From assembly GCA_047602505.1 (NCBI GenBank), contig JASGHD010000001.1:2911929-2975928 (forward strand): a stretch of 64,000 nt of DNA, given 5' to 3'. The number at the start of each line of letters is the position of its first letter. Positions within the stretch are counted from its first letter, which is position 1. Positions 12,011 to 61,985 of this stretch are shown here, piece by piece. The notes beneath the pieces are model-generated. The model saw nothing but the letters and a program-made list of their open reading frames with translations. It searched no databases and was not told the DNA's origin. The translations under genes and the position numbers were made by a program. The stretch is from Opitutaceae bacterium. Its GTDB lineage: Bacteria; Verrucomicrobiota; Verrucomicrobiia; Opitutales; Opitutaceae.

Positions 12011-12394
12011 ACGTTGTCCGAGGTGGGCGGCGTTGCCCCCAACGCCGTCGCGCGCCCGAGCCGCAGAAGACAGGCCTGCGCGCACGGCTGACTTGCCCTT
12101 CCGCCACGGGCCGAGTCCACAACCCGCTTGAGGGCAAGCGGGTCCACCCGCAAGCGAGCAGGCCCGCCTTCCGGATTAGCGTCAATGAGCGTCCATTAGC
12201 GGTTCCTCCCTTCGTCTCGCCCGCCTCCGTCCGACTTTCTGCTGAAATCTTCTAAGAAACCCGCGGCTCGCGTGTCTTCATGGGGTGGAGCCTCCACGGC
12301 TCCGTTTTCCGCCGCCATGGACGCCCCGGCCACCGCCCAAGTTTTCTCGCCACCTCCCGGTATTTCCGGTCTGGTGGCGGCGCAAACCCCGCGC

Positions 12395-12901
12395 ATGGAT
12401 CCGGAGCCACCCACCTTGGCTGCGTTGTTCGAAAAGGAGGAGAGCGGACTCCTGCGCTACGCACTCGGGCTCACGGGTCGCCGCTCTGTCACCGAGGAGT
12501 TGGTACAGGAGGCGTTTCTCCGCCTCCACCAGTCGTGGGCCGAGGTCGAGAACCCTCGCGCTTGGCTCTACCGCACCGTCCGCAACCTCTCCCTCAACCA
12601 CCTCCGCGACCACCCCGCCGAGGCCGAGCTCGATCCCGACACCGCCACCGGCGACGCGCGCTCCGCCGCCGAGCGCCTCGGCCGCGACGAGGCCGTGGGC
12701 ACCGTCCGGCTGCTCCTCGCCGAGCTGCCCGCCGCCGACCGCCGCCTCATCCACCTCAAGTACCACGAGGAGCTCCAGTATCAGGAGATCGGACGCCGCA
12801 CCGGCCTGAGCACCGGCAACGTCGGTTTCCGCCTGCACCACCTCCTCAAATCGCTCGCCGACGCGCTTCGCCGCGCCGGCATCGAAGGAAGCGAGGGCTG
12901 A
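12395..12901 (+). CDS. ECF (sigma-70 family) RNA polymerase sigma factor.
   Basis: Region-2 motif EELVQEAFLRLHQSW…YRTVRNLSLNHLRD and region-4 HTH YQEIGRRTGLSTGNVGFRLHHL. An alternative start exists at 12272. Confidence 0.75.
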   Translation: MDPEPPTLAALFEKEESGLLRYALGLTGRRSVTEELVQEAFLRLHQSWAEVENPRAWLYRTVRNLSLNHLRDHPAEAELDPDTATGDARSAAERLGRDEAVGTVRLLLAELPAADRRLIHLKYHEELQYQEIGRRTGLSTGNVGFRLHHLLKSLADALRRAGIEGSEG

Positions 12902-12903
12902 AC

Positions 12904-15624
12904 ATGAATTCCGCCAACCAACCGCCCGCTCCGCACCGCCCGCCCGACGACCAGCTCGAGGAACGCCTCGTCGCCTGGGTCCTCGGCGAGGCGTCCGACT
13001 TCGAGATCGCCGCGCTCCAGGCCGCCGTCGCCGCCCGCCCCGAGCTCGCCGCCTTCAAACGCCGCATCGAAGCCGTCCACGGTCTCGTCGCCACCGCCGC
13101 GCGCCCCGAGGCCGCGCCGCTCCGCCTTTCCCCCGACCGCCGCGCCAAACTCCTCGCCGTGATCGGCTCCGCCTCCGCTGTAGCCGGTGTCGCCGACCCC
13201 GGCCAATCCTCCGCCGCTCCCAAGCCCGCCGCTTCCACGAAACCCTCCGCCGTGCGTCTGCCGCGCCCAACCGAGCGCCCGTGGTGGCGCAACGACTGGT
13301 TCTACTCCGCCGCCGCCTGCGTGGTGATCAGTATTGGCGGACTCTGGATGCTAAGCACGGTGCCGAAGGAGAGTGAGACTGCGGCCAAGGTTGCGATGTT
13401 CGATTTGGCTGTTCCGATGGAGAGCCAAGAGAACGACGAGGCGATTGGCGCTCTGCCGGAGCCGATGAACACGGTCGGCTATTCGGAGATCACCACGGTG
13501 ATTAAGCCGGCCCCGTTGGTATTCAACGCGCCGCCAGTGGTGCCGAAGTCGACGCGTTCGCTCTCGGTGCAACCCAGCATGACCTTCGGCATGAATGCAC
13601 CGGCTGCCGCTGCGCCTCGTGCGGCTTGGTCGGCTCAACCGCAGCGCCAAGTCGAGATCGCCAGTGCGCGTGGCTATGCTGGAACGACCGATGAGGGGTC
13701 GACCGGGGTGCTGGACAAGTTCGAGGTCTCGGCGGATGCGAACTTCGGATATCAGGCGTCACAGACTATGGCGGGCACGCGCATTCGCACAGAACTCAAG
13801 GATGTCGCTTCCCCGATCTCGGGCGTCTCTAGCCAATTTCTGAAAGACACCGGCGCGACCAACACCGACTCGCTCTTGGGCTACAGCTCAAACACGGGCG
13901 CTGGTGGCCTTGCAGGAAACTATGCGGGGAAATCCGCTGCCTCCCGCGACAGCTTCCTCTCCAAGCGCAAGACCGAGCGCAACGGTGGCAAGGGTGGGGC
14001 TCCAGCTCCGGCCGCGCCGGTGGTCGGTGGCGAAGCAGAGGAAGTCGTGGTGCTCTCGCCATTCGAGGTCTCGCGTTCTCACGACTATGGCTACCTAGGC
14101 GGCAATCGTCCGGCGAAGCGTCCCAAGCACTCTGCATCCTCGGCGACCACGGCCGGCATGGGCCCGGGCGGCCTCGATCAAAACCAAGTGCTCCCGCCCG
14201 CGGCGTCCACCACGTCCACTCCGTCCACCCAGTCCACCGCCGATTCCGACAAACCCCTCCCGCGCCCCGCCCAGAAGCCGCTCCCGCCGCCTGCCGCTGA
14301 TGAAACCAGCGCCGCGCAGGAGCCCGTCTCCACGTTCTCGCTCCACGTACGCGACGCCTCGTTCAAGCTCGCGCTGGCCGCGCTCGCTGCCGGCCGCGTA
14401 CCCGATCCGGCCTCGATCCGCCCCGAGGAGTTCTACAACGCCTTCGACTACGGCGACCCGGCGCCGGGTGCGGGAGAAAAAGTCTCCTGCCGCGTCGAGC
14501 AGTCGGCGCATCCGTTCGCGCAGCAGCGCAACCTCGTGCGCATCGCCGTGCGCGTGCCGGCGACCGGTCGCGGCAGCGGCACGCCGCTCAACCTCACCGT
14601 GCTCCTCGACACCTCCGGCTCGATGGAGCGCCCCGACCGCCGCGCCGCCGTGCGCGCCGCGTTGGCCACGTTGGTCGGACTGCTCGGGCCGAACGACCGG
14701 CTCACGCTCATCGGCTTCGCGCGCCAGCCGCGCCTGCTCGCCGAGTCGTTCGATGGCGCTCACGCCAGCCAGGCGCTCGGTCTGCTCGACTCCACGCCCG
14801 CCGAGGGCGGCACCAACCTGGAAGAGGCGCTCAAGCTCGGCGGTGAGCTCGCCCGACGCCTCTTCGCCGAGGCCGCGCAGAACCGCATCGTGCTCCTTAC
14901 CGACGGCGCCGCCAACCTCGGCAACGCCGAGCCGGAGCGCCTCGCCGCCGCCATCGAGACGCTGCGCAGCCAGCGCATCGCGTTCGACGCCTGCGGCGTG
15001 GGCCTCGAGGGCGTCGAGGACGAGATGCTCGAGGCGCTCACCCGCAAGGGCGACGGCCGCTACTACGTGCTCGATTCGCCCGAGGCGGCCGACGCCGGTT
15101 TCGCGCACCAGCTCGCCGGCGCATTCCGCCCCGCCGCCGAGAACGTGAAGCTTCAGGTGCGTTTCAACCCGGCGCGCGTTGGCCGCTACCGGCTCGTCGG
15201 CTTCGAGAAACACCGCCTGCGCGAGGACGATTTCCGCAACGACGCCGTCGACGCCGCCGAGCTCGCCGCCGAGGAGGCCGCCGTGGCCGTGTACGAAGTC
15301 GAGGCGCTCCCGCAGGGCGAGGGCGAGCTTGGCGAGGTCTTCGTCCGCTTCCGCGACGCCGCGTCGAAGACCATGGTCGAGCGCTCGTGGACGTTGCCCT
15401 ACGAGTCGCGCGCCGCGGCCTTCGACCGCGCCTTGCCCAGTCTCCAGCTTGCCGGCACCGCCGCCGCGCTCGCCGAGAAACTCCGCGGTGGCCCCGCCGG
15501 CGACCGCGTCGACCTCGACGCCCTCGCACCGATCGTGAACGCCCAGCGCGCCCGCCGCCCCGACGACAAGCGCATCCAGGACCTCGCCACGCTGTTCGAG
15601 CAGGTTCGGAAGATGAAGAAATGA
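12904..15624 (+). CDS. Anti-sigma factor fused to a von Willebrand factor type-A (VWA) domain, YfbK-like (906 aa).
   Basis: The start is 2 bp after the sigma-factor stop. N-terminal anti-sigma region, then one TM helix (WFYSAAACVVISIGGLWMLSTV), a long Pro/Ala/Ser-rich linker, and a VWA domain (LNLTVLLDTSGSMERPDRR…GGTNLEEAL…IVLLTDGAANLG) with a YfbK-like C-terminal extension. Confidence 0.75.
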   Translation: MNSANQPPAPHRPPDDQLEERLVAWVLGEASDFEIAALQAAVAARPELAAFKRRIEAVHGLVATAARPEAAPLRLSPDRRAKLLAVIGSASAVAGVADPGQSSAAPKPAASTKPSAVRLPRPTERPWWRNDWFYSAAACVVISIGGLWMLSTVPKESETAAKVAMFDLAVPMESQENDEAIGALPEPMNTVGYSEITTVIKPAPLVFNAPPVVPKSTRSLSVQPSMTFGMNAPAAAAPRAAWSAQPQRQVEIASARGYAGTTDEGSTGVLDKFEVSADANFGYQASQTMAGTRIRTELKDVASPISGVSSQFLKDTGATNTDSLLGYSSNTGAGGLAGNYAGKSAASRDSFLSKRKTERNGGKGGAPAPAAPVVGGEAEEVVVLSPFEVSRSHDYGYLGGNRPAKRPKHSASSATTAGMGPGGLDQNQVLPPAASTTSTPSTQSTADSDKPLPRPAQKPLPPPAADETSAAQEPVSTFSLHVRDASFKLALAALAAGRVPDPASIRPEEFYNAFDYGDPAPGAGEKVSCRVEQSAHPFAQQRNLVRIAVRVPATGRGSGTPLNLTVLLDTSGSMERPDRRAAVRAALATLVGLLGPNDRLTLIGFARQPRLLAESFDGAHASQALGLLDSTPAEGGTNLEEALKLGGELARRLFAEAAQNRIVLLTDGAANLGNAEPERLAAAIETLRSQRIAFDACGVGLEGVEDEMLEALTRKGDGRYYVLDSPEAADAGFAHQLAGAFRPAAENVKLQVRFNPARVGRYRLVGFEKHRLREDDFRNDAVDAAELAAEEAAVAVYEVEALPQGEGELGEVFVRFRDAASKTMVERSWTLPYESRAAAFDRALPSLQLAGTAAALAEKLRGGPAGDRVDLDALAPIVNAQRARRPDDKRIQDLATLFEQVRKMKK

Positions 15625-15641
15625 GAGCCGGTCTTCCAATG

Positions 15642-15717
15642 GTAGGGCGAACCGTCCCCGGTGAGCCGAAGCTCGGCCCGCGACTGAACACGGCTCGGCG
15701 GGGACGCCTCGCCCTAC
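15642..15717. repeat. REP-like inverted-repeat element, long copy (GTAGGGCGAACCGTCCCCGGTGAGCCG…CGGCTCGGCGGGGACGCCTCGCCCTAC).
   Basis: Imperfect palindrome with arms of about 27 nt. This copy carries an extra internal segment. It lies between the anti-sigma/VWA gene and the giant gene. Confidence 0.65.
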
Positions 15718-15874
15718 CATCGGACCATCCGCCCGCTCCGTCGGATCCGTCCGCTGCCTACGCCTGACATTTCCCTGACAAACCCCTGACCCGCCCCTGA
15801 CGACTTCGCGCGCCGCGTGTGCGAGAATCACGCACCCCGCTTCCGCGCCATCGCTTTCAACCCGAAGGAACTCC

Positions 15875-18800
15875 ATGAACGCCATCACCTCGCTCGGCTC
15901 CACGATTCCGCAACTTGCTTGCCGCTTGTTCCGAGGTGGACCGCGTTGCCCTCAACGCGGTCAGACGCGATTGTTCGTTGCCGCCTTGTTCGCCCTCACG
16001 GGCGCGCTCGCCGCGGCGCCGAAACCGGCCGACACCGCGAAAACCTCCGCCACGCTCACACCTGACGGCGGGCGGATCGTCGTCGATGTGCAGGGCGTGC
16101 CGCCGGCAGTGCCGCTGTTCTTCTCGGCCGCCGCCGAGCAGACCGTGCGCCTCAGCGCCGCCGAGATCACCGGCGAGCTGCGCCTGAAACTCCACGTCGT
16201 GCAGGGCAAACCCGAGGTGCTCGCGCTCGGCCTCAGCGGCGAGGGCGAGGTCACCGAAGTGAGCGGCGAAGGCCTTGCCTCGTGGGCGGTGCGCCAAGTG
16301 CCGCTCTCCGGGAAACGTTTCCTCGACCTGCGTCCGGCGCTCGCCGAGGGCGCGCCCTTACCGCGCGATCTCGACCTCGTCGTCCGCACGCGTCTCCGCA
16401 AACCCACCGTGCCTGGCGCCGCCTCCGTGCTCATCGCCGCTCCCGGCGACGCCGTGGGCTTCGCCTCCACGATCACCCTCCAGGCCGACGCCGCGCTTGA
16501 TCTTCGCGTGACGGCCGCGAGCGGTCTCGTCGCGCTGGGCGAACAGCGCAGCCCGCGCGATCCGGTGCGTTTCCAGACCACCGGCGAGGGCGCGCTCACG
16601 GTCCGTCTCACCCCGCGCGGTGCGGCTCCGGCCGAAGCCGAGCTCCTCGGCGCGCAACTCTCCGGCAAGATCAACGAGACCGCGAAGAGCGCGGAGTTCC
16701 GCCTGCGCGCGCAGCTCCGCTCCGCGAAGGCCGGCGCGCGGCTCCCGCTCCTCAAGGGCAGCGCCGCCCCGAGCGACAAGGCCGCCGGCGACGGCTGGCA
16801 CCTCGAACTCGCGCCGGCCGACAGCGCGTTCCAGGACTACGAGCTCGTGACCGAGCGCGAGGGCGCGCTGGCCGTCGATCTGCCGTTCGCCGCCGCGATC
16901 CGCGAAGCGGGGGAGTGGCGCGTGCTCGATTTCTCGATGCCGGCCGGCGCGGTCGTGCCGATCCAGCTCGACGGTCTGCCGGCCGGCGTGAGCTTCGATC
17001 CCGAGCGGCCCGTGCTGCCGGTCGCCACGGCGCAGGGTTGGCAGGGTTTCCTCCCGGCCGACGGTGCCACGGCGCTCGCGTGGAAGCATGCCGCCAAGGT
17101 CGTCGAGGGCGCGCTGTTCTTCACCAGCAGCGAGCAGACCGATTCGCGCCTCGGCGCCGGCCTGTTGCGCCAGGAAGCGACGCTCGCGCTCCAGATTCTC
17201 CAGGGAAAACTCACCGCGCTCCGTATCCGCCTCGACGGGCCGGGCGAGATCGTGGGCGTCGAGGGCGCGAACCTCCTGAGCTGGCGCGTGGTGCCGGCCG
17301 AGGGCGCCCGCGCGCTCGAGGTGCAGTTCAGCCGCCCGATCGAGCAGACCAGCGCGATCACGGTGCGCAGCCAGACGGAGCTCGGCGGCTTCCCGATTCG
17401 CGTGGAACCGCTGCGGCTCTCGCCCGAGGGCGTTGTGCGCCACTCCGGTTTCCTGCGCGTGGCCAACGACGGCGCGGTGCGTCTCGAGGTCGCCGAGGCC
17501 TCCGGCATGATGCAGCTCGCACCCGAGCAGTATCCGACCGGCGAGCTCGACGACGACGCGGTGCGGCAGGTCTTCGTGTACCGGTTCCCGGCGGCGACCT
17601 ACAGCTACCGCCTCCTCGCCTCGCAGATTCAGCCGGAGGTCGGCGTCTCCGCGATCCTCACCTACGAGCTCGGCGAAACCGACCGCACCATCGCGGCGAG
17701 CCTCGAACTGGACATCCGCGAGGCGCCGTTGCGTGACTGGACGCTCCAGATCCCGGCCGACTACACGGTGGTCGGCGTGACCGGCGGCGACGTGAGCGAC
17801 TTCATCGCCGAATCGACCGCGGTCGACGGCCGGCGCGCGTTGAAGGTGCTGTTCGCCGAGCCGGTCGAGGGGCGGCAATTGCTCCAGCTCCGCCTCGAGA
17901 AGAACCAGGCCGCCGCGGCGGGCGAGTGGGCGTTGCCGGCGCTGCGTTTCCCCGGCGCGAAGTCGGTCCGCGGCCATATCGGAGCCGTGGCGACGCCGGG
18001 CTACCGTCTTGTGCCGGCCGGCGTCGACAAGCTCGTCGAGGTGCCGCTGAGCTATTTCCCGCAGCAGACCGCGCGGCTCCAGCAGGCGTGGCGGTTGCGC
18101 GACGCCGAGTGGTCGGCCGCGCTGAAGATCGAGGCGCTCGGGCAGAGCGTGCAGGCCGACGTTTTCCACCTCTATACGGTGAAGGAGGGCGTGGTCTACG
18201 GCAGCGTGCTGCTGAACTATTTCGTCGTCGGCGCGCCGGCGACCGAGTGGCGCCTCGCGGTGCCCGCCGAGGTGGGCAACATCGACGTGGTCGGCCAGAA
18301 CGTCCGCCGCGACTGGCGGCGCGAGGGCGACCAGCTCGTTGTTTCACTCCATCAGCCCGTGCTCGGCGCGGCGACGTTGCTCGTGACCTTCGAACAGCCG
18401 ATGAGCGCGCGCGGCGGCACGATCCAGCCCGGCCAAGTGCGCCCGCTCGGCGTGCAGGCGGAGCGCGGCTACGTGCAGGTCGTGAGCCCCGCGCAGGTGA
18501 AGCACGAGATCCGCAAGGCCGAGGGCGGTCTCCTGAAGCTGGAGCCGCTGGAGCTGCCCACCGAGTTCCGCCTGCTCACCAGCTCGCCCTCGCTCGCGCT
18601 CTACCAGTACACCGCGCGGCCGTTCGCGCTCGAGGTGGGCGTCGAGTGGTACGACGCCGGCGAGACCGTCGACCAGGTCGTCGATTTTGCGAAGCTCTCC
18701 AGCCAGATCTCCCGCGACGGCCAGGTCGTGACCGACGCGCAGTTCTTCGTGAAGACCCGCGGCCGCAAGGCTCTGCGGCTTGAGCTCCCCGCTGGCGCGA

Positions 18801-21800
18801 AGCTCTGGGAGGCGCGCGTCGACAACGAGATCGTCAACGCCCGAGCCGACGGCAACCAGACGCTCGTGCCGCTGCCGGCGAAGCTGAATCCCAACGACCC
18901 GGTGGCCGTCGCGCTGCGTCTCGGCCAGGCGGCGGGCGGCAGCGCGACCATCAAGCTCGTCGCGCCGCGCACCGTGGCGCCGAGCGTCATCAACGAATGG
19001 ACGCTGCACGCCGACTCCGGCCGCCTGCTCGCCCCGCGCGGCGGCAACGCCGAGCTGCTCCGCCCCGCGCTCACCGAGACCGGTTTCGAGTGGATCGCTG
19101 GCCGCGGCGTGTTCACTGCGGGACTGCTGCTGGCGTTCACCGCGCTTGGCGCGTTGTTGGCCCGCGGCTCGTCGCGCCAGCAGATCTTCGCGCTGATCCT
19201 CTTCGCCAACGTCACGATCGCCGCGTTGCTCGTCGCCGCTTCGGCGATGGTCAACCGTCGCTCGAACATCCAGGAGCTCACCTATGCCGCCACGATGGTG
19301 CCCGCCGAGGAGGCCGTGACGATCACGGTGCTGAACGGGACCGCTTGGCAGGCGATGGTCTCGTGGTGGGGCGTGGTCGCGGTGGTGGTCGGCGCTGTGG
19401 TGACCGTGGGCTCGCGTTTCGTGGGTAGGGCGAACCCTCCGGGTGAGCCGCAACCATCGGCTCACCGGGGACGGTTCGCCCTACCTGTGGGTGTCGCGCT
19501 CGTCTCCGCCGGCCTGCTCGCGCAGCACGGCGGGGCGATCATCTTCTACGGCTGGGGTGCGCTCGCCGTGTGGCTGCTGCTCTTCATGCCGACGCTCGGC
19601 CGCTGGAACCACGATCGCCGCGAGCGCCAGTTCGCCGAACAGGCGGAGCCGCCGCCGGTGCCCGGTGGCGAGTCTTCGGGTTCCGGTGCGGCCTCGGTGC
19701 TGCCGCTGGTCGCGCTGCTCGGCGCGCTCGCCTTCGGTTTCGGCGCGCAACCGGCGCAGGCGCAGAATCAGGTCGACCAGATCACGCCGACACCGGTGGA
19801 TCCGGCCTTGGCTGGGCGACCGGCACAATCGGCCGTGCAGACCTGGACGATTCGCGAAGACCGCCTCTACGGCGAGCTGGAGCTCACCGTGCGCGGCGGG
19901 CCCGGCGACAGCTTCCTCCTGCTGCGCCCGCCCGCGGTGCTGACCGAGTTCAAGGCCGACGGCCTGCGTCTCGGAAAATCCGAGCTCAACGGCCAGACTT
20001 CGTACTTCGTCGCGCCCGAGCGCGAAGGCCTGCTCACGGCGCGCGTGCGCTTCGAGCTGCCGGTGCCGAAGGGGACGACGCAGATCGTGCTCCCGACCGG
20101 CGCCGCGGCCACGCAGCGCGTGACTGTTGCCCTCGATCAGGGCGGCTGGGAGTTCGCCTCGCCGGCGGCGGTGCAGGTGGTGCCGACGCCGAATCTCGGC
20201 GACGCCCGCAGCGGCGCGACCCTCGTGCTCGCGCCGCAGGGCGCGGCGGTCGTGCAGTTGCTGCCCAAGCGCCGCGACCTCGCGACCGAGGCGACGCAGT
20301 TCTTCGCCGAGACGACGCAGCTCTTCCTCCCCGGCCCCGGCGTGGTGAACGGCCGCATGGTTGTCTCGATCCGCCCGGTGCAGGGCCGCGTTTCCTCGCT
20401 CGTGCTCGACGTGCCCGCGGGGCTGACCGTGGGCACGGTGGAGGGCGACGGGACGGAGGTCTCCACGTGGCGCTTCGACCCGGAGAAACGCCGGCTGGCG
20501 ATCACGCTCGCCTCGCCGCAGGAGCGGCAGTTCCGCGTCGGCATCGAGACGCAGCTCGGGACGGGCGCGCTGCCGTTCGATCTCACGCTCACGCCGCTGC
20601 GCGTGGTCGGCGCCGCCGGCGATGTCGGCACGCTCGCGCTCGCCTTCGGCGGCGACGCGCAGCCGGAGAGCGTGCGCGCCAGCGGGCTCTCGCCGGTGAA
20701 CACCGAGGATTTCGACCCCGAGCTGATTCCCGAGACCAAGGACGGCGAACCGAGCGCGACGCTCCAGCACGTGTGGCGTTTCGGCCAGGGCGGCGGCAGC
20801 GTGTCGCTCAAGATCGCGCCGGTCGCGCCCGAGGTGCGCGTCGTGGGCCGGCAGGTGCTCTCGCTCGACGATGACCGTCTGGTGATGGCCGTCGATCTCG
20901 CGGCGGAGATCACGCGCGTCGGGTTGTTCAAACTCAGTTTCGTGCTGCCCGTGGGCCTCGAGGTCGAGGCGCTCAGCGGCAAGGCGCTCAGCCATTGGAC
21001 GGAGGCGCAGGAGGGCAACCAACGCGTGGTGACGCTGCACCTCAACGGCCGCACGATCGGCGACGAGAAGTTCACGCTCACGCTCGCCGGCGCCGCGCCC
21101 CGTGCGCAGGAGGCCTGGCCGATCCCGCACCTGCAGGTGCGCGAGGCCACGCGTCAGACTGGCGAGGCGCTCGTCGTGCCCGGCAAGGGCCTGCGGCTGC
21201 GCGCGGTGGAGCGCGAGAAGGTTACGCAGCTCGACCCGCGACAGGTCGGCGGTCTGCAACCCGGCACGCTGGCGTTCCGGCTGTTGCAGGAGGATTGGTC
21301 GGTGAAACTAGGTATCGAGGCGCTGGAGCCGTGGGTGACGGTGCAGGCGCTGCAGGAGACGACCGTGCGCGAGGGCCAGACGCTCGTGCGGCTCGCGCTG
21401 CGCTACCGCGTGGAGAACGCCGCGGTGAAACAATTCCGCGTGAAGCTGCCCGGCCTCGGCGAGGAGCGCGCCCGCACGGTGCGCGCCACCGGCGCCGCGG
21501 TGAGCGACATGGTGCGCGTCGCCGGCAGCGACGACACCTGGGAGATTCGCCTGCAGCGCGGCATCGCCGGCGAGACCGACGTGCAGATCGAGTTCCAGGG
21601 GCCGTCGACCGGCGACCAGAAGCTGGAGACGGTGGCGATGCCGGAGTTCGTCGGCGTGCGGCAGGCGGTGCAGTTCGCCGCGGTGCGCGCGGGCGGCCGG
21701 CTCGAGCTCGAGACCGGCGCGCTTCCACGCGGTTGGTCGCGCACCGACTGGAGCGCGGTGCCCGCGATCCTGCAGAACCGCACCGACCGGAGCGTGCCGG

Positions 21801-22942
21801 CGCTATGTTTCCGCGTGGCCGAGGCCGAGGGGCCGCTGCCGGTGGCGGTGCGGCGGCATGAAGTTGCCGAGGCACTCAAGCTCCGCGTGACGCAGGGCGA
21901 CCTCACGACGTTGTTCTCGCCCGCGGGCGCATGCCTCACGGCGGTGGACCTGCGCGTCGACGTGCTCGAGAAGAGCACGCTGCGCGTGCGGCTGCCGGAG
22001 GGCGCGCGGCTTTTCAACACGCTCGTCAACGGCGAGAGCGTGTCGGTCGTGCGCGAGGGCGACGCGTTCCTCTTCCATGTGACGCCGAACACGGCGGGCG
22101 AGCGCTCGGCGGCGGTGCGGCTCGTGTACTCGGCGCCCGGAGGCAAGGGCGGCGACGTCGGGCTCGTCGGCCCGCGGCTCAACGTTCCGCTGGAGAATGT
22201 GACGTGGCGCGTGGTGATCCCGCCCGGCTACGAGCTGGAGAGCTACGGCGGCGGGCTGCGGTTGCGCGAGGAGCGCTACGGCAGCTCGTTCGGCGGGCTG
22301 GAGCAGTACCAGTCGTCGATCGTCTCGAAGCGTTCGGCCGAGTCGAAGAAGGCCGTGGCGATGATGCAGGAGGCGAGTTCGCTCCTGCAGAAGGGCGACC
22401 AGCAGAAGGCCAGCGAGGTGCTCTCACGCGCCTACAACACGCAGGCGCTCGACGAGGCCGCGAACGAGGACGCCCGCGTGCAGCTCCGGAATCTGAAGAC
22501 GCAGCAGACGGTGCTCGGCCTCAACACGCGCCGCCAGCGCCTCTACCTCGACAACCGCGTCGACGCCGCGCGCAACGAGCAGCTCGAGCAGGCCGCCAGC
22601 CTGAATCCGTTCATGCAGGGCAACGTGAACTTCAACCCGCAGCAGGTCGACCAGCTGCTCATGGGCAACTCGGCCGACGAGAACACCGCGCTGCGCGGCA
22701 TCGCCGACCGGCTTGTCGACCAGCAGCTCGCCGCCGAGCCGGCGCCGCGCGCGATCGACGTGACGCTCACCGAGCGCGGCCGGGTGTTCACGTTCACCCG
22801 CAGCCTGCAGGTCGAAGGCGACAAGCCGCTCCAGCTCACGCTCGATCTCGCGCGCACGGCGCGTCCGCCGTACGCCACCGCAATCGTGCTGCTCCTGGCG
22901 ATCGCCGGCATCGCCATCATCCCGCTCGTGCGGCGGAAGTGA
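15875..22942 (+). CDS. Giant (2355 aa) secreted, membrane-anchored protein of unknown function.
   Basis: N-terminal signal peptide (FVAALFALTGALAAAPKPA). Mostly non-repetitive, beta-rich-looking sequence. A cluster of hydrophobic helices near residues 1080-1230. C-terminal TM anchor (IVLLLAIAGIAIIPLVRRK). No catalytic motif was recognised. Confidence 0.65.
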   Translation: MNAITSLGSTIPQLACRLFRGGPRCPQRGQTRLFVAALFALTGALAAAPKPADTAKTSATLTPDGGRIVVDVQGVPPAVPLFFSAAAEQTVRLSAAEITGELRLKLHVVQGKPEVLALGLSGEGEVTEVSGEGLASWAVRQVPLSGKRFLDLRPALAEGAPLPRDLDLVVRTRLRKPTVPGAASVLIAAPGDAVGFASTITLQADAALDLRVTAASGLVALGEQRSPRDPVRFQTTGEGALTVRLTPRGAAPAEAELLGAQLSGKINETAKSAEFRLRAQLRSAKAGARLPLLKGSAAPSDKAAGDGWHLELAPADSAFQDYELVTEREGALAVDLPFAAAIREAGEWRVLDFSMPAGAVVPIQLDGLPAGVSFDPERPVLPVATAQGWQGFLPADGATALAWKHAAKVVEGALFFTSSEQTDSRLGAGLLRQEATLALQILQGKLTALRIRLDGPGEIVGVEGANLLSWRVVPAEGARALEVQFSRPIEQTSAITVRSQTELGGFPIRVEPLRLSPEGVVRHSGFLRVANDGAVRLEVAEASGMMQLAPEQYPTGELDDDAVRQVFVYRFPAATYSYRLLASQIQPEVGVSAILTYELGETDRTIAASLELDIREAPLRDWTLQIPADYTVVGVTGGDVSDFIAESTAVDGRRALKVLFAEPVEGRQLLQLRLEKNQAAAAGEWALPALRFPGAKSVRGHIGAVATPGYRLVPAGVDKLVEVPLSYFPQQTARLQQAWRLRDAEWSAALKIEALGQSVQADVFHLYTVKEGVVYGSVLLNYFVVGAPATEWRLAVPAEVGNIDVVGQNVRRDWRREGDQLVVSLHQPVLGAATLLVTFEQPMSARGGTIQPGQVRPLGVQAERGYVQVVSPAQVKHEIRKAEGGLLKLEPLELPTEFRLLTSSPSLALYQYTARPFALEVGVEWYDAGETVDQVVDFAKLSSQISRDGQVVTDAQFFVKTRGRKALRLELPAGAKLWEARVDNEIVNARADGNQTLVPLPAKLNPNDPVAVALRLGQAAGGSATIKLVAPRTVAPSVINEWTLHADSGRLLAPRGGNAELLRPALTETGFEWIAGRGVFTAGLLLAFTALGALLARGSSRQQIFALILFANVTIAALLVAASAMVNRRSNIQELTYAATMVPAEEAVTITVLNGTAWQAMVSWWGVVAVVVGAVVTVGSRFVGRANPPGEPQPSAHRGRFALPVGVALVSAGLLAQHGGAIIFYGWGALAVWLLLFMPTLGRWNHDRRERQFAEQAEPPPVPGGESSGSGAASVLPLVALLGALAFGFGAQPAQAQNQVDQITPTPVDPALAGRPAQSAVQTWTIREDRLYGELELTVRGGPGDSFLLLRPPAVLTEFKADGLRLGKSELNGQTSYFVAPEREGLLTARVRFELPVPKGTTQIVLPTGAAATQRVTVALDQGGWEFASPAAVQVVPTPNLGDARSGATLVLAPQGAAVVQLLPKRRDLATEATQFFAETTQLFLPGPGVVNGRMVVSIRPVQGRVSSLVLDVPAGLTVGTVEGDGTEVSTWRFDPEKRRLAITLASPQERQFRVGIETQLGTGALPFDLTLTPLRVVGAAGDVGTLALAFGGDAQPESVRASGLSPVNTEDFDPELIPETKDGEPSATLQHVWRFGQGGGSVSLKIAPVAPEVRVVGRQVLSLDDDRLVMAVDLAAEITRVGLFKLSFVLPVGLEVEALSGKALSHWTEAQEGNQRVVTLHLNGRTIGDEKFTLTLAGAAPRAQEAWPIPHLQVREATRQTGEALVVPGKGLRLRAVEREKVTQLDPRQVGGLQPGTLAFRLLQEDWSVKLGIEALEPWVTVQALQETTVREGQTLVRLALRYRVENAAVKQFRVKLPGLGEERARTVRATGAAVSDMVRVAGSDDTWEIRLQRGIAGETDVQIEFQGPSTGDQKLETVAMPEFVGVRQAVQFAAVRAGGRLELETGALPRGWSRTDWSAVPAILQNRTDRSVPALCFRVAEAEGPLPVAVRRHEVAEALKLRVTQGDLTTLFSPAGACLTAVDLRVDVLEKSTLRVRLPEGARLFNTLVNGESVSVVREGDAFLFHVTPNTAGERSAAVRLVYSAPGGKGGDVGLVGPRLNVPLENVTWRVVIPPGYELESYGGGLRLREERYGSSFGGLEQYQSSIVSKRSAESKKAVAMMQEASSLLQKGDQQKASEVLSRAYNTQALDEAANEDARVQLRNLKTQQTVLGLNTRRQRLYLDNRVDAARNEQLEQAASLNPFMQGNVNFNPQQVDQLLMGNSADENTALRGIADRLVDQQLAAEPAPRAIDVTLTERGRVFTFTRSLQVEGDKPLQLTLDLARTARPPYATAIVLLLAIAGIAIIPLVRRK
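19425..19484. repeat. REP-like element copy lying in-frame inside the giant ORF.
   Basis: GTAGGGCGAACCCTCCGGGTGAGCCGCAACCATCGGCTCACCGGGGACGGTTCGCCCTAC is 60 bp and translates as VGRANPPGEPQPSAHRGRFALP without breaking the frame. Confidence 0.6.
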
Positions 22943-40872: not shown

Positions 40873-41571
40873 TCAGGTCTGCGTGGTGGTTTCGGTGGCG
40901 AGCGGTGCCGCGAGCGCGGCAAGCAGGAGCGGCAGGCCGATGCAGAGGCAGATCGAGGCGGACATCACCGCGCCGGCGAGTCGCGGCGCGATGGGCAGCA
41001 GCGGCACATGGAGCAGAAACACGACGATGCTGGCGAGGAACGTCCACGCGAGCTTCGGGCTGCGACGGCGGTACAGCCACGCGATGGCACCGCCGGCGAC
41101 GTAGGCGATGGAGAAGCCGGCGATGTCGAGGGCGACGAACCGGATCCAGTTCGTCGGCCCGAGCGCGCGGGCGATCTCGGGCGGTGGTGGCGGCACGGGA
41201 TGGAGCTGCAGCGCCAGCGTGGGCAGGTAGGACGTGATTTCGATGACGAGGGCGACGGCCAGCGCGCTGGCGATCACCGCCGTCGCGACCGGGCGGAACC
41301 GGATCTCGGCGAACGCATAGAGCACGACCAGCGGCAGCAGCGCCGAGGCGTAGAGCAGCGCGCCGCCCGTCTGGACCGCGCCCCAGAGCCGCGAGACCTC
41401 GATCCCCGAGAAATCGCCGGAGACGAGCATCTCCGGCGTGACCGCCGGCGGCGCGAGCAACGTGGGCAAGGCGTAGAGGAGCAGTCCCGCCGCGGAGAGC
41501 GCGGCGAGCCAGAGCGCGGGATTGCGGGTGTCGGTCGGAAGCGTGTGCGGGGCGAGCGCTGCGTCGTTCAT
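40873..41571 (-). CDS. Hypothetical integral membrane protein.
   Basis: Several TM helices. No family recognised. Confidence 0.55.
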   Translation of the reverse strand: MNDAALAPHTLPTDTRNPALWLAALSAAGLLLYALPTLLAPPAVTPEMLVSGDFSGIEVSRLWGAVQTGGALLYASALLPLVVLYAFAEIRFRPVATAVIASALAVALVIEITSYLPTLALQLHPVPPPPPEIARALGPTNWIRFVALDIAGFSIAYVAGGAIAWLYRRRSPKLAWTFLASIVVFLLHVPLLPIAPRLAGAVMSASICLCIGLPLLLAALAAPLATETTTQT

Positions 41572-41654
41572 GGGGCAACCTATCCCGCGCGGTGAGATGT
41601 GCCGGCGGATTTGTGACAGGCGGTGCCGGCCGCGGGTCGGACGGCAGGCGGTCG

Positions 41655-41707
41655 GTAGGGCGAACCCTCCGGGTGAGCCGCGGCTCGGCGGGGACGCCTC
41701 GCCCTAC
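41655..41707. repeat. REP-like inverted-repeat element copy.
   Basis: GTAGGGCGAACCCTCCGGGTGAGCCGCGGCTCGGCGGGGACGCCTCGCCCTAC. Confidence 0.65.
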
Positions 41708-42119
41708 CTCGACCAAGGCCGTTTCGGCGATCTGCCGTCGTGGCGTACGCGATGATCAACGACCGCAAGAGCGCTCCCGCCGCCGACTACCTCGACGCGC
41801 TGCGTGCCTACCGGATCAAGGCATTCCTCTGGAGCCAGCGCGAGGCGCTGGCGACCGAGGTCGGGGCGAACCGAGGCGGCTGTGTGGCTCCGACGAGGCC
41901 GGAAGCGGGTCCGCTGATGGACGCTGATCAACGCTGATAGGTGGACGAACGGCGTAGAATAGCGTGTCGCAGAACACCGGCGACGAATGCTGGACTTCCA
42001 GGACGCGCTAAGTCAGAGAGATAGCCGTCTCGGCGCTTTGGCCGGGTTGTGGCAAGAGGCGCGCTATGTATCTCAATCCCCGCCTTTGACGAACCACTGC
42101 TTGCTACATCGAAATTACC

Positions 42120-42656: not shown

Positions 42657-43787
42657 TCACGTCAGCGTCTTCCGGAAGCGGGAGACGGCGATGGCCATGA
42701 CGGCGACGCCGAGGGCGAGGAGGGCGGCGTATTGCGGCCAGAGGATGTCGAAACCGATGCCCTTCAGGAACACTCCGCGGATGATCACGAGGATGTAGCG
42801 CAGCGGGTCGACCAGGCTCAGCCATTGGAAAAACGCCGGCATGTTCGCGATGGGGAAGATGAACCCGGAGAAAAGCATCGCGGGGAAAAAGAAGAAGAAT
42901 GTCGTCATCATCGCCTGCTGCTGCGTGCGGCAGACCGTCGAGATGAACAGCCCGATGCCGAGCGTGCTCAGCAGGAAGAGCGCGACGCCGCCGAGCAGGA
43001 GCGCGAAGCTGCCGCGGAACGGAATCTGGAACCAGAATAGCGCCACGGCGGAAACGAGCGCGACGTCGATGAATCCGATCACCGCGAACGGCGCGCATTT
43101 TCCGAGGATGAACTCCACCGGGCGGATCGGCGTGACCATGACCTGCTCGATCGTGCCGACCTCCTTCTCGCGCACGATCGCCATGCTGGTGAGCATGAGG
43201 CTGATCAGCATGACCATGATCGAGATCACGCCGGGCACGTAGAAGTGGCGGCTCTCGAGATCGGCGTTGAACCACGCGCGCGGCTGGAGATCGACAGCGC
43301 CGACGGGCACGGTGCGGCCGGCGAGGCGGAGAGTCTGGTCGAGCGCGAGGGCGTTGCCGGCGGTGGCGGCGATGACGCCGGCGTAGTTGACCACATAGCG
43401 CGCGGTGTTCGAGTCGGCGCCGTCGACGATGAGTTGCACGGGCGCGGGCTGCCCGGCGTGGAGGCGACGTTCGTAGCCGGCGTCGATGCGCAGGATCGCC
43501 GCGGCGCGAGTGGAGTCGACGAGGGCGCGCGCCTCATCGTCGTCGAAGGTGCGGGCGACGGCGTCGAAGTACGCGGAGCCGGTGAACCGCGCGACGAGCT
43601 CGCGGCTGGCGGGGGTGTTGTCGCGGTCGACGATGGCGAGCGGCACGTGGCGGACATCGAGCGTGACGGCGTAGCCGAAGATCAACGTCTGGATGACCGG
43701 CAGCCCGAAGATGACGATCCGCATGCGCGGGTCGCGGAGGACGGAGCGGAACTCCTTGCGCAGGAGGGTGAGGATGCGTTCCCACAT
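42657..43787 (-). CDS. ABC-2 family transporter permease (YbhR-like).
   Basis: MWERILTLLRKEFRSVLRDPRMRIVIFGLPVIQTLIFGYAVTLD; six-TM ABC-2 topology. Confidence 0.85.
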   Translation of the reverse strand: MWERILTLLRKEFRSVLRDPRMRIVIFGLPVIQTLIFGYAVTLDVRHVPLAIVDRDNTPASRELVARFTGSAYFDAVARTFDDDEARALVDSTRAAAILRIDAGYERRLHAGQPAPVQLIVDGADSNTARYVVNYAGVIAATAGNALALDQTLRLAGRTVPVGAVDLQPRAWFNADLESRHFYVPGVISIMVMLISLMLTSMAIVREKEVGTIEQVMVTPIRPVEFILGKCAPFAVIGFIDVALVSAVALFWFQIPFRGSFALLLGGVALFLLSTLGIGLFISTVCRTQQQAMMTTFFFFFPAMLFSGFIFPIANMPAFFQWLSLVDPLRYILVIIRGVFLKGIGFDILWPQYAALLALGVAVMAIAVSRFRKTLT

Positions 43788-43865
43788 GGTGGGTTCAGGG
43801 GGCGGGCGTTTCCCGTAGGGCCGGACCGGGCGTCCTATGCTGGGCGCTTTGCCTGCCGGTGGAAG

Positions 43866-43919
43866 GTAGGGCGAACCGTCCCCGGTGAGCCGCGGCTCGG
43901 CGGGGACGCCTCGCCCTAC
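43866..43919. repeat. REP-like inverted-repeat element copy lying between the two ABC-2 permease genes.
   Basis: GTAGGGCGAACCGTCCCCGGTGAGCCGCGGCTCGGCGGGGACGCCTCGCCCTAC. Confidence 0.65.
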
Positions 43920-43961
43920 CCGCAGGCGTCGGAGCGGCCGGAATGGATGGATGGCGTGCCT

Positions 43962-61933: not shown

Positions 61934-61985
61934 GGCAGGGCGAGTCGTCCCCGACGAGCCGCGGCTCCCTGTTTCCCCGCGGAAG
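61934..61985. repeat. Degenerate REP-like element remnant.
   Basis: …GGCGAGTCGTCCCCGACGAGCCGCGGCTCCCTG… shares the GAGCCGCGGCTC core and the GTCCCCG arm with the other copies. Confidence 0.3.

What the first reader, a model, noticed from the sequence alone, without database searches (positions are those of the whole stretch)
19425..19484. REP-like element lying in-frame (60 bp, 20 codons) inside the 2355-aa ORF
The copy at 19425-19484 is exactly 60 bp. In the reading frame of the giant gene it is translated as VGRANPPGEPQPSAHRGRFALP with no stop. It sits within the hydrophobic helix cluster, directly before another hydrophobic segment (VGVALVSAGLLAQ). Either the element inserted into a tolerant loop of the protein and is domesticated, or the 'giant gene' is really two genes joined by an ORF-calling artefact across a non-coding REP spacer.
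Basis: seen in the sequence. Interest (0 to 1): 0.6.

Follow-up and report, generated by a model that had tools for sequence, protein, structure and literature searches.

The report
REP repeat translated inside membrane-protein gene
A 62-bp mobile palindromic repeat (a pair of "REP" hairpins) sits in frame inside a conserved 2,300-residue Opitutaceae membrane-protein gene and is read as about 20 extra residues in a loop between two membrane helices; this kind of insertion is already documented in Opitutus genomes.

Summary
It lies in frame, without a stop, in ORF 15875-22942. Three further complete copies and one half copy lie outside that gene in the same window.

The "two genes joined" reading is rejected. 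The ORF is one conserved ~2,315-aa protein in more than 120 Opitutaceae. dN/dS is about 0.15-0.21 on both sides of the element, and GC3 is about 0.91-0.93 in the same frame on both sides.

The "native sequence" reading is also rejected. Only the window genome and one other lineage (two assemblies) carry the insert, and the closest orthologues (85-89% identical) lack it. Its codons are the most atypical 21-codon stretch in the gene.

The insert lies in a variable, arginine-rich loop between two transmembrane helices. I infer the loop is cytoplasmic. Two other lineages carry different REP types in the same loop.

The repeat family occurs across the PVC bacteria (Planctomycetes-Verrucomicrobia-Chlamydiae group). 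In relatives it flanks RAYT genes (REP-associated tyrosine transposases).

Intragenic GTAG REPs, most numerous in Opitutus terrae, were described in 2013 (PMC3733652). This is a new instance of a known kind. Domestication is not shown.

The parts
19424..19485 (+). The in-frame REP dimer (REPIN-like element), 62 bp. It encodes GRANPPGEPQPSAHRGRFAL(P), residues 1184-1204 of the ORF.
   Evidence: It is identical in its stems to the copy in L001 and L005. Its codon usage is the most atypical in the gene.
19424..19450 (+). Left REP unit: G-GTAG-GGCGA-ACCC-TCC-GGGT-GAGCC-G. This is the GTAG tag followed by a hairpin with a covarying inner stem.
   Evidence: It is the same unit as the left unit of copy C at 41654-41680.
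19451..19457 (+). 7-nt spacer CAACCAT, the loop of the long hairpin. It holds the only two differences from the L001 copy (CAAGCCT).
19458..19485 (-). Right REP unit, inverted. Its reverse complement is GGTAGGGCGAACCGTCCCCGGTGAGCCG, identical to the left units of copies A and D.
15875..22942 (+). Host gene. The ORF is 2355 codons, and the NCBI product P0001 is 2318 aa from a later start. It is a conserved Opitutaceae protein of unknown function: signal peptide, large domain, a cluster of about six TM helices, a second large domain, and a C-terminal TM anchor.
19364..19423 (+). Codes for the transmembrane helix immediately before the insert (ORF residues ~1164-1183).
   Evidence: Hydropathy. 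AlphaFold2 helix at model residues 124-143.
19466..19522 (+). Codes for the next transmembrane helix (ORF residues ~1198-1216). Its first residues (RGRFALP) are encoded by the right REP unit.
   Evidence: AlphaFold2 helix at model residues 158-176. Hydropathy.
15641..15718 (.). Family copy A: a REP dimer with a 22-nt spacer. It starts 17 nt after the stop codon of the upstream VWA/YfbK-like gene, in the spacer before the giant gene.
41654..41708 (.). Family copy C: a REP dimer with no spacer. It lies just beyond the start of ORF 40873..41571 (-); a 111-aa '+' ORF that overlaps it (41592..41927) has no Pfam match.
43865..43920 (.). Family copy D: a REP dimer with no spacer, upstream of the ABC-2 permease gene at 42657..43787 (-).
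61934..61961 (+). Single REP unit of a GCAG-tagged subtype (GGCAGGGCGAGTCGTCCCCGACGAGCCG).

Best explanation
The element is a non-autonomous mobile repeat. It consists of two GTAG-tagged REP hairpins in inverted orientation, which makes it a REP dimer or 'REPIN'. I infer that a RAYT (REP-associated tyrosine transposase) of the IS200/IS605 Y1 type spreads it as single-stranded DNA.

One copy landed in the DNA that encodes the short loop between the third and fourth helices of the central transmembrane cluster of a conserved ~2,300-residue Opitutaceae protein. It landed in one of the element's two open frames, and the net length change (+42 nt) kept the reading frame.

It is therefore translated as about 20 Gly/Pro/Arg-rich residues. 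About 14 of them form the connecting coil. The last seven extend the next helix.

I infer that the loop is cytoplasmic, from the order of helices and the positive-inside rule. The loop naturally varies in length and sequence. The insert keeps a net positive charge, so the protein tolerates it and the gene stays functional.

Shown: identity as a REP-family copy; absence from the nearest orthologues; one intact gene under purifying selection; location between predicted helices; association of the family with RAYT genes in relatives.

Inferred: the transposition mechanism; the side of the membrane; that the insert is a tolerated passenger and not a functional part.
For: Repeat family.
- Four dimers and one half unit lie in the 64-kb window.
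- The unit is GTAG-GGCGA-N4-TCC(C)-N4'-GAGCC. Its inner 4-bp stem covaries across 138 units: GGCG/CGCC, ACCG/CGGT, ACCC/GGGT, AGCC/GGCT and others.
- Complete units occur in 64 of the first 120 genome hits, all labelled PVC (Planctomycetes-Verrucomicrobia-Chlamydiae group) or unlabelled.
- In L071, L135, L069 and L053 these units flank a ~150-aa gene. The two tested match NCBIfam NF047646 'REP-associated tyrosine transposase' at 83-86 bits (cut-off 80). One matches PDB 4ER8 TnpArep at E = 1.7e-10.

One gene, not two.
- More than 120 orthologues of ~2,315 aa cover 96-100% of the query.
- dN/dS between the window and L001 is 0.154 upstream and 0.214 downstream, the same as for element-free pairs.
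- GC3 is 0.906 upstream and 0.928 downstream in the same frame.

An insertion, not native sequence.
- The element is present only in the window genome and in L001/L005. It is absent from P0002, P0003, P0004 and P0008 and from the other orthologues examined.
- Element GC3 is 0.57.
- It is the lowest-ranked 21-codon window in the gene for codon usage (rank 0.0004). AGG, CTA, CCT and CCA are almost unused elsewhere in the gene.

A tolerant loop.
- Hydropathy peaks flank the insert.
- AlphaFold2 gives a helix at 124-143, coil at 144-157 and a helix at 158-176. pLDDT falls to 84 and 71 there, between blocks of 94 and 91.
- Orthologue loops differ in length and are rich in Arg and Lys.

Not an assembly artefact. 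Three independent assemblies carry it.

Precedent. Di Nocera et al. 2013 (PMC3733652) list about 70 intragenic GTAG REPs in O. terrae, with dimers encoding 20-30 residues.
Against: - No clean empty site exists. Element-free orthologues have a 13-residue loop (IA[HR]RR[GK]F..AL..). The window has 27 residues there, a net gain of 14 residues (42 nt), not 20-21. The insertion must have come with other changes to the loop, or been followed by them.
- Carriers are not monophyletic. L001 is closest overall to the element-free L002 (91.3% nt identity, against 88.3% to the window). A short recombination patch or a loss therefore has to be assumed.
- No RAYT gene lies in the window. An active transposase in this genome is not shown.
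- There are no transcript or peptide data.
- The stems are 55/55 identical between lineages that differ at dS ~0.33. Local flanks are 79% identical. A purely neutral passenger does not predict this. It needs recent recombination, gene conversion between copies, or selection on the hairpin.
Confidence: 0.85

Rival explanations
1. The 2355-codon ORF is really two adjacent genes. They would be read together only because a non-coding REP spacer without stop codons happens to join them.
For: - The element has no stop in two of its three sense frames.
- The second half of the protein is preceded by a hydrophobic segment that ends in AQPAQAQ and looks like a signal peptide.
- In another genome (L134) a REP dimer of this family does sit between solute-binding-protein and permease coding regions that read as one frame.
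Against: - More than 120 orthologues without any REP encode the same single ~2,315-aa protein across the junction.
- Hydrophobic helices continue on both sides of the insert.
- dN/dS and codon phase are the same on both sides.
Confidence: 0.02
2. The stretch is native coding sequence that only resembles the repeat by chance or convergence.
For: The ancestral loop (I-A-H-R-R-G-F..A-L) faintly resembles the peptide encoded by the right arm (S-A-H-R-G-R-F-A-L). L002 shares the octamer GCTCGGCG with the commoner right-arm form CGGCTCGGCG found in copies A, C and D.
Against: - Both units are base-for-base identical to other copies in the same window.
- The closest orthologues lack the sequence.
- Its codon usage is the most atypical in the gene.
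- The expected number of chance matches is 0.
Confidence: 0.02
3. The element has been co-opted. One version is that the very stable mRNA hairpin plus its cluster of rare codons acts in cis. It could be a translational pause just after a transmembrane helix emerges, or an RNA processing or stability site. The other version is that the encoded Pro/Arg-rich loop has gained a role. Either would explain why the stems are kept perfect.
For: - The stems are 55/55 identical between lineages at dS ~0.33, while the spacer has 2 changes in 7 and the flanks are 79% identical.
- The hairpin folds at -61.9 kcal/mol.
- The element holds rare codons AGG, CTA, CCT, CCA and GGA.
- The same loop carries REPs in two other lineages.
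Against: - 6.8% of 62-nt windows in this gene are equally conserved.
- The gene is a recombination mosaic, with segments 98-99% identical between lineages. A recent patch transfer therefore explains the identity.
- Most orthologues do without any insert.
- REP copies stay close to the master sequence for reasons unrelated to the host gene. Recognition by RAYT is inferred, and the covarying unit stems fit this.
- There is no T-run after the hairpin, so it is not an intrinsic terminator.
Confidence: 0.1

Closest known systems
Intragenic GTAG-tagged REPs of Opitutus terrae and other bacteria (Di Nocera, De Gregorio & Rocco 2013, BMC Genomics 14:522, PMC3733652)
   Same: - The element is a GTAG tag followed by a short GC-rich hairpin.
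- The units form inverted dimers with short spacers.
- It is inserted in frame in genes for recognisable proteins, and dimers encode 20-30 residues.
- O. terrae, from the same family as this genome, has the most such cases.
- In the paper's table, paralogues (ASPIC/UnbV proteins) carry different REP families at equivalent positions. That parallels the three REP types found here in one loop.
   Different: - The unit sequence here (GGCGA-N4-TCC(C)-N4'-GAGCC, peptides GRA..P..EP / A.RGR.ALP) is not one of the O. terrae peptide types listed for GTAG-17, 18 or 19.
- Figure 1 of the paper was not readable, so I could not compare consensus sequences directly.
- The host gene (the giant membrane protein) is not in their list. 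The O. terrae orthologue P0101 showed no REP peptide.
REPIN-RAYT systems (Bertels & Rainey 2011, PMC3116915; Nunvar et al. 2010, PMC2817692)
   Same: - Two inverted REPs form one long hairpin.
- There are many near-identical copies per genome.
- In relatives, units of the family flank a single-copy RAYT gene.
   Different: - REPINs are described as almost wholly extragenic. This copy is translated.
- The RAYT of this particular genome was not seen.
- The spacer length of the dimers varies (0, 7 and 22 nt) within the window.
Rickettsia palindromic elements, RPEs (Ogata et al. 2000, Science; from my own knowledge, and as cited in PMC3733652)
   Same: They are selfish palindromic repeats inserted in frame in protein-coding genes. 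They are read as extra peptide segments in surface loops, and the host gene remains functional.
   Different: RPEs are longer (about 100-150 bp). According to PMC3733652 they belong to the CGTC-tagged group, which has no known dedicated transposase. They occur in reduced alphaproteobacterial genomes.

Membership tests
GTAG-tagged REP superfamily (Di Nocera 2013) | A terminal GTAG tetranucleotide, not part of the unit's own short hairpin, at one end of the unit | tested here: met
   Both units of the element, and all units of copies A, C and D, begin G-GTAG. Some family members carry GCAG (window 61934, L003). The paper allows such degeneracy (GYAG).
GTAG-tagged REP superfamily (Di Nocera 2013) | A short GC-rich stem-loop next to the tag, with stems supported by compensatory changes among copies | tested here: met
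   The unit is GGCGA-N4-TCC(C)-N4'-GAGCC. Of 138 units with this frame, nearly all have four complementary inner pairs, in at least seven different pair sets.
GTAG-tagged REP superfamily (Di Nocera 2013) | Many dispersed copies per genome, mostly between genes | tested here: inconclusive
   The 64-kb window holds four dimers and one half unit, and all but this one lie outside the giant gene. The rest of the 4.5-Mb genome could not be read.
REPIN-RAYT system | Two REPs in inverted orientation able to form one long hairpin | tested here: met
   Arms of 17 and 12 nt are 92-94% complementary. The minimum-free-energy fold is a single long hairpin at -61.9 kcal/mol, z = -5.05.
REPIN-RAYT system | A cognate RAYT gene flanked by REPs of the same family | tested here: inconclusive
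   Met for the family. In L071, L135, L069 and L053 the units flank such a gene. The L071 and L135 proteins score 83 and 86 bits against NCBIfam NF047646 (cut-off 80), and the L071 protein matches PDB 4ER8 at E = 1.7e-10. Pfam Y1_Tnp gives only 17-20 bits, below its cut-off of 23. Not met within this window: tblastn finds no RAYT. The rest of the genome was not available.
REPIN-RAYT system | Transposition by the RAYT acting on single-stranded hairpin DNA | not testable with these tools
   This needs biochemistry or evidence of new insertions. Turnover of repeats at the orthologous site after the VWA gene is only indirect evidence of mobility.
Domesticated (exapted) mobile-element sequence | Evidence that the inserted sequence is kept by selection for a host function | tested here: inconclusive
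   The stems are 55/55 identical against 79% in the flanks. However, 6.8% of gene windows are equally conserved, the gene is a recombination mosaic, and most orthologues lack any insert.

The most novel reading that the evidence does not exclude
The DNA for the loop between the third and fourth transmembrane helices of this giant Opitutaceae protein may be a true hot spot for REP integration, or a site where REP hairpins are selectively retained. It carries three different REP types in three lineages. No recognisable REP peptide was found elsewhere in the mature part of the 120 orthologues. The perfectly conserved hairpin might then have a cis role, such as a translational pause during membrane insertion or an mRNA processing site, and would not be a mere passenger.
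Probability: 0.1. Interest if true: 0.55.

Novelty: new member of a known kind. Interest (0 to 1): 0.3.

Why it matters
It settles how to annotate this gene. It is one intact 2,300-residue gene with a translated repeat inside, not two genes and not a pseudogene.

It adds a well-resolved example of how REP dimers add peptide segments to proteins. The example has carrier and non-carrier orthologues, a predicted structural context and evidence of purifying selection.

Three REP types in the same inter-helix loop show where a large membrane protein can accept insertions. If the site proved to be a real integration hot spot, it would bear on how RAYT-mobilised repeats choose targets.

The repeat family and its RAYT are also shown to extend across the PVC group.

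Tried and rejected
- Pfam on the giant protein gave no family. Its function stays unknown.
- Rfam on the whole window gave nothing at gathering thresholds.
- My first nhmmer model of the REP unit was built from badly registered units and gave only weak hits. I replaced it with fuzzy and structured regular-expression scans.
- I looked for a RAYT between copies C and D and among neighbouring ORFs with Pfam. I found only an ABC-2 permease, an ABC transporter, a VWA/YfbK-like protein and UxuA. tblastn with PVC RAYTs against the window found nothing.
- I tried to define the element's exact ends and any target duplication from the orthologous site of copy A. That site holds unrelated palindromes in L002 and a different GTAG REP dimer in L004, so there is no empty site to compare.
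- A literature search for the literal repeat sequence returned only unrelated primer matches.
- The P0050 loop (SRDRRAGRQ) looked REP-like at the peptide level. Its DNA shows no GTAG-tagged palindrome, so I did not count it.
- Many single 17-mer hits in non-PVC genomes (Pseudomonas, Bradyrhizobium, Propionicimonas and others) lack the full unit and were treated as chance matches.
Full report
**What is there**

Window 19424-19485 reads GGTAGGGCGAACCCTCCGGGTGAGCCG-CAACCAT-CGGCTCACCGGGGACGGTTCGCCCTACC. It is an almost perfect palindrome, with arms of 17 and 12 nt that are 92-94% complementary. As RNA it folds into one long hairpin of -61.9 kcal/mol, z = -5.05 against dinucleotide shuffles.

Every copy of the family also has the extra G and C, so the element is 62 bp. 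It lies in ORF 15875-22942 (2355 codons). There it is read as GRANPPGEPQPSAHRGRFAL(P) without a stop. One of its three sense frames contains TAG and TGA, and the other two are open.

**It is a copy of a repeat family**

- The first 25 nt recur exactly at 41655, with 0 expected by chance.
- The 12-nt arm occurs five times against 0.2 expected.
- The window holds four dimers: A 15641-15718, B 19424-19485, C 41654-41708 and D 43865-43920. A single unit lies at 61934-61961.
- The left unit of B is identical to the left unit of C. The right unit of B is the exact reverse complement of the left units of A and D.
- Copies A, C and D lie outside the giant gene. A starts 17 nt after the stop codon of the upstream VWA/YfbK-like gene. 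D lies upstream of an ABC-2 permease gene.

**Anatomy of the unit**

Each 27-28-nt unit is GTAG + GGCGA-N4-TCC(C)-N4'-GAGCC, a tag followed by a short hairpin. I examined 138 such units from the window and fetched loci. The inner four pairs covary: GGCG/CGCC 30 units, ACCG/CGGT 26, ACCC/GGGT 14, AGCC/GGCT 12, and also GGCC, GCCG and GCTG sets. The unit is therefore a real hairpin repeat.

The full elements are inverted dimers with the GTAG ends outward. Their spacers are 0, 7 or 22 nt.

**Distribution and transposase**

Of these, 64 contain complete units. All 64 are labelled Opitutaceae, other Verrucomicrobiota, Victivallales/Lentisphaerae, Kiritimatiellae or Akkermansia, or carry no taxon label. 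The hits in other phyla lack the full unit and are chance 17-mers.

In four loci (L071, L135, L069, L053) units of this family flank a ~150-aa gene on both sides.
- The two proteins tested (L071, L135) match NCBIfam NF047646 "REP-associated tyrosine transposase" at 83 and 86 bits (cut-off 80).
- The L071 protein matches the solved E. coli TnpArep structure 4ER8 at E = 1.7e-10.
- Pfam Y1_Tnp gives only sub-threshold scores for the three tested.

No such gene lies in the window.

**The giant ORF is one gene**

- The protein search returned more than 120 proteins of about 2,280-2,450 aa, most near 2,315. They cover 96-100% of the query at 59-89% identity and come from Opitutaceae, including Opitutus terrae.
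- The window's own annotated product (P0001, 2318 aa, "MAG: Opitutaceae bacterium", on a 4.5-Mb contig) uses a start 37 codons later.
- Hydrophobic helices continue on both sides of the insert.
- Between the two carrier lineages, dN/dS is 0.154 upstream and 0.214 downstream of the element (dS 0.33-0.35). Element-free pairs give the same values.
- GC3 is 0.906 upstream and 0.928 downstream, in the same frame.

The "two genes joined" alternative is rejected.

**The insert is lineage-specific and foreign in composition**

In an alignment of the 31 closest orthologues, only P0009 shares the insert (VGRANPPGEPQASAHRGRFALP). P0002, P0003, P0004 and P0008 (82-89% identical) have a 13-residue loop, IA[HR]RR[GK]F..AL.., in its place.

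The DNA confirms this.
- L001 (GCA_035415285.1) carries the element at the same site. So does L005, a JGI metagenome contig 99.8% identical to L001.
- L002, L004 and L006 do not carry it.
- Three independent assemblies therefore contain it, which rules out an assembly artefact.

The element's GC3 is 0.57. Its 21 codons are the most atypical window in the gene (rank 0.0004). AGG, CTA, CCT, CCA, GGA and GCT each make up 0-3% of their amino acid's codons elsewhere in the gene.

**Where it sits in the protein**

Hydropathy gives helices centred near residues 1087, 1113, 1169-1175, 1214, 1229 and 1280, plus a C-terminal anchor at 2343.

I ran AlphaFold2 on residues 1041-1340 with a 45-sequence alignment (mean pLDDT 73.6).
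- A helix spans model residues 124-143 (ORF 1164-1183).
- Coil spans 144-157 (GRANPPGEPQPSAH).
- A helix spans 158-176 and begins with the REP-encoded RGRFALP.
- pLDDT falls to 84 and 71 in the blocks that cover the insert, between blocks of 94 and 91.

I infer that this loop faces the cytoplasm. The inference rests on the N-terminal signal peptide, the order of helices and the Arg/Lys-rich loops. The insert has net charge +2, like the loop it replaced.

**What does not fit a simple story**

- The net gain is 14 residues (42 nt), not 20-21. No orthologue shows a clean empty site.
- Carriers are not a clade. L001 is closest overall to the element-free L002 (91.3% nt identity, against 88.3% to the window). 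Directly on both sides of the element, L001 resembles L002.
- L001 shares with the window only an 18-nt upstream flank (17/18 identical) and the element itself.
- The gene is a mosaic. Some 300-nt segments are 98-99% identical between lineages that average 88%. A short recombination patch, either a gain in L001 or a loss in L002, is the simplest account.
- The stems are 55/55 identical, the spacer has 2 changes in 7, and the 294 nt upstream are 79% identical. This could reflect a recent transfer, gene conversion between copies, or selection on the hairpin.
- Gene-wide, 6.8% of 62-nt windows are equally conserved. The signal is therefore suggestive only.

**The same loop is hit repeatedly**

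- L003 (P0031, 66% identical) carries a different dimer at the same place and in the same frame. It is GCAG-tagged, has GTCC/GGAC stems and a 10-nt spacer, and encodes GRASPPDEPLSATARRGRLALLP.
- L138 (P0012) carries a single unit of another family in the same loop, GTAG-GGCCGGCG-CTCGT-CGCCGGGCC. It encodes VGPALVAG, which matches the VGPALAAG peptide of O. terrae GTAG-18.
- A peptide scan of the 120 listed orthologues found REP-type peptides nowhere else in the mature protein. One lies at residue 18 of P0089, probably upstream of the real start.
- This fits a selection filter, in which only this loop tolerates inserts. A target preference is not excluded.

**Comparison with what is known**

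Di Nocera et al. 2013 (PMC3733652) defined the GTAG-tagged REP superfamily. They reported that O. terrae is highly enriched in these repeats and has the largest number of intragenic ones. [quoted passage not shown] Their table shows paralogous ASPIC/UnbV proteins with different REP families at equivalent positions.

The present case is the same phenomenon in a related genome, with a unit type not among the O. terrae peptide types listed. In line with that paper, a UvrA-like ORF in Opitutus sp. PR.011 (L020) carries two in-frame dimers of the present family. The dimer architecture and the RAYT link match the REPIN-RAYT concept (PMC3116915, PMC2817692). Rickettsia palindromic elements are the classic analogue but belong to the CGTC-tagged group.

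**Verdict**

The "insertion in a tolerant loop" reading is right. The "two genes" and "native sequence" readings are rejected. "Domestication" is unproven.

This is a new member of a known kind and of modest interest. The recurrent use of one inter-helix loop and the perfectly preserved stems are the only points that might repay further work.

Noticed in passing
L020 399-480 and 1945-2010 (Opitutus sp. PR.011, PNKG01000026.1): A long UvrA-like ORF (at least 1,260 codons, with two ABC ATPase regions) carries two in-frame dimers of this same REP family. They encode VGRGVPAEPRFTEDGSPCLE and GRARRPAEPRLTGDGLPCSP. This parallels the doubly hit uvrA genes of O. terrae reported in PMC3733652.
   Followed up: partly
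L134 4369-4423 (uncultured Opitutaceae, CALFNJ010000214.1), minus strand: A REP dimer lies between a coding region that looks like an ABC solute-binding protein and one that looks like a permease. The two read as one open frame through the repeat (…MIRRGRERVGRGVPAEPRLTGTVRPTTGSAAAE…). This may be a REP-mediated gene fusion or a lost stop codon.
   Followed up: no
L138 4466-4495 (orthologue P0012, Ga0395716_000012): A single GTAG REP of another family (GTAG-GGCCGGCG-CTCGT-CGCCGGGCC, peptide VGPALVAG, like O. terrae GTAG-18) lies in frame in the same inter-helix loop of the orthologous giant protein.
   Followed up: partly
L003 6574-6639 (orthologue P0031, NM_forest_Scaff3738827): A GCAG-tagged dimer of a different subtype, with a 10-nt spacer, lies in the same loop and the same frame. 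It is probably an independent insertion.
   Followed up: partly
L071 4892-5359 (-), L135 2709-3158 (-), L069 ~7303-7677 (+), L053 520-963 (+); weaker homologue at L115 6483-6890: RAYT genes (REP-associated tyrosine transposases) are flanked on both sides by units of this REP family in Verrucomicrobiota, Victivallales and Lentisphaerales genomes. The L071 and L135 proteins score 83-86 bits against NCBIfam NF047646, and the L071 protein matches PDB 4ER8 at E = 1.7e-10. L135 holds 10 units in 8 kb.
   Followed up: yes
window 15625-15874 compared with L004 ~2670-2790 and L002 ~2760-2860: The spacer just after the VWA/YfbK-like gene holds a different palindromic repeat in each lineage: copy A in the window, another GTAG REP dimer (GTAGGGGCGTCGC…) in L004, and unrelated palindromes in L002. 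This suggests fast repeat turnover at one intergenic site. The ~200 nt upstream of the giant gene's start are highly conserved between the window and L002 and contain several CCTGAC motifs; L004 shares most of this stretch but diverges over roughly the last 80 nt.
   Followed up: partly
window 15875-22942 compared with L001, L002 and L004: The giant gene is a recombination mosaic. 300-nt segments reach 98% (window-L001, alignment columns 600-900) and 97-99% (window-L004, 3' end), although the pairs average 88%.
   Followed up: partly
window 15875-22942 and neighbours 12280-15624: The 2,355-residue protein has no Pfam domain. It consists of two large, probably extracytoplasmic halves separated by a cluster of about six TM helices, and it ends in a TM anchor. 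In several genomes it follows a VWA/YfbK-like gene and an ECF-type sigma factor gene. Sources name orthologues inconsistently ('LysM…', 'glycosyltransferase family 87'). Its function is unknown.
   Followed up: partly
P0089 residues 18-25: A peptide like O. terrae GTAG-19 (HGRDAHAT) lies near the annotated N-terminus of an orthologue. It is probably an extragenic REP included by a start codon called too early.
   Followed up: no
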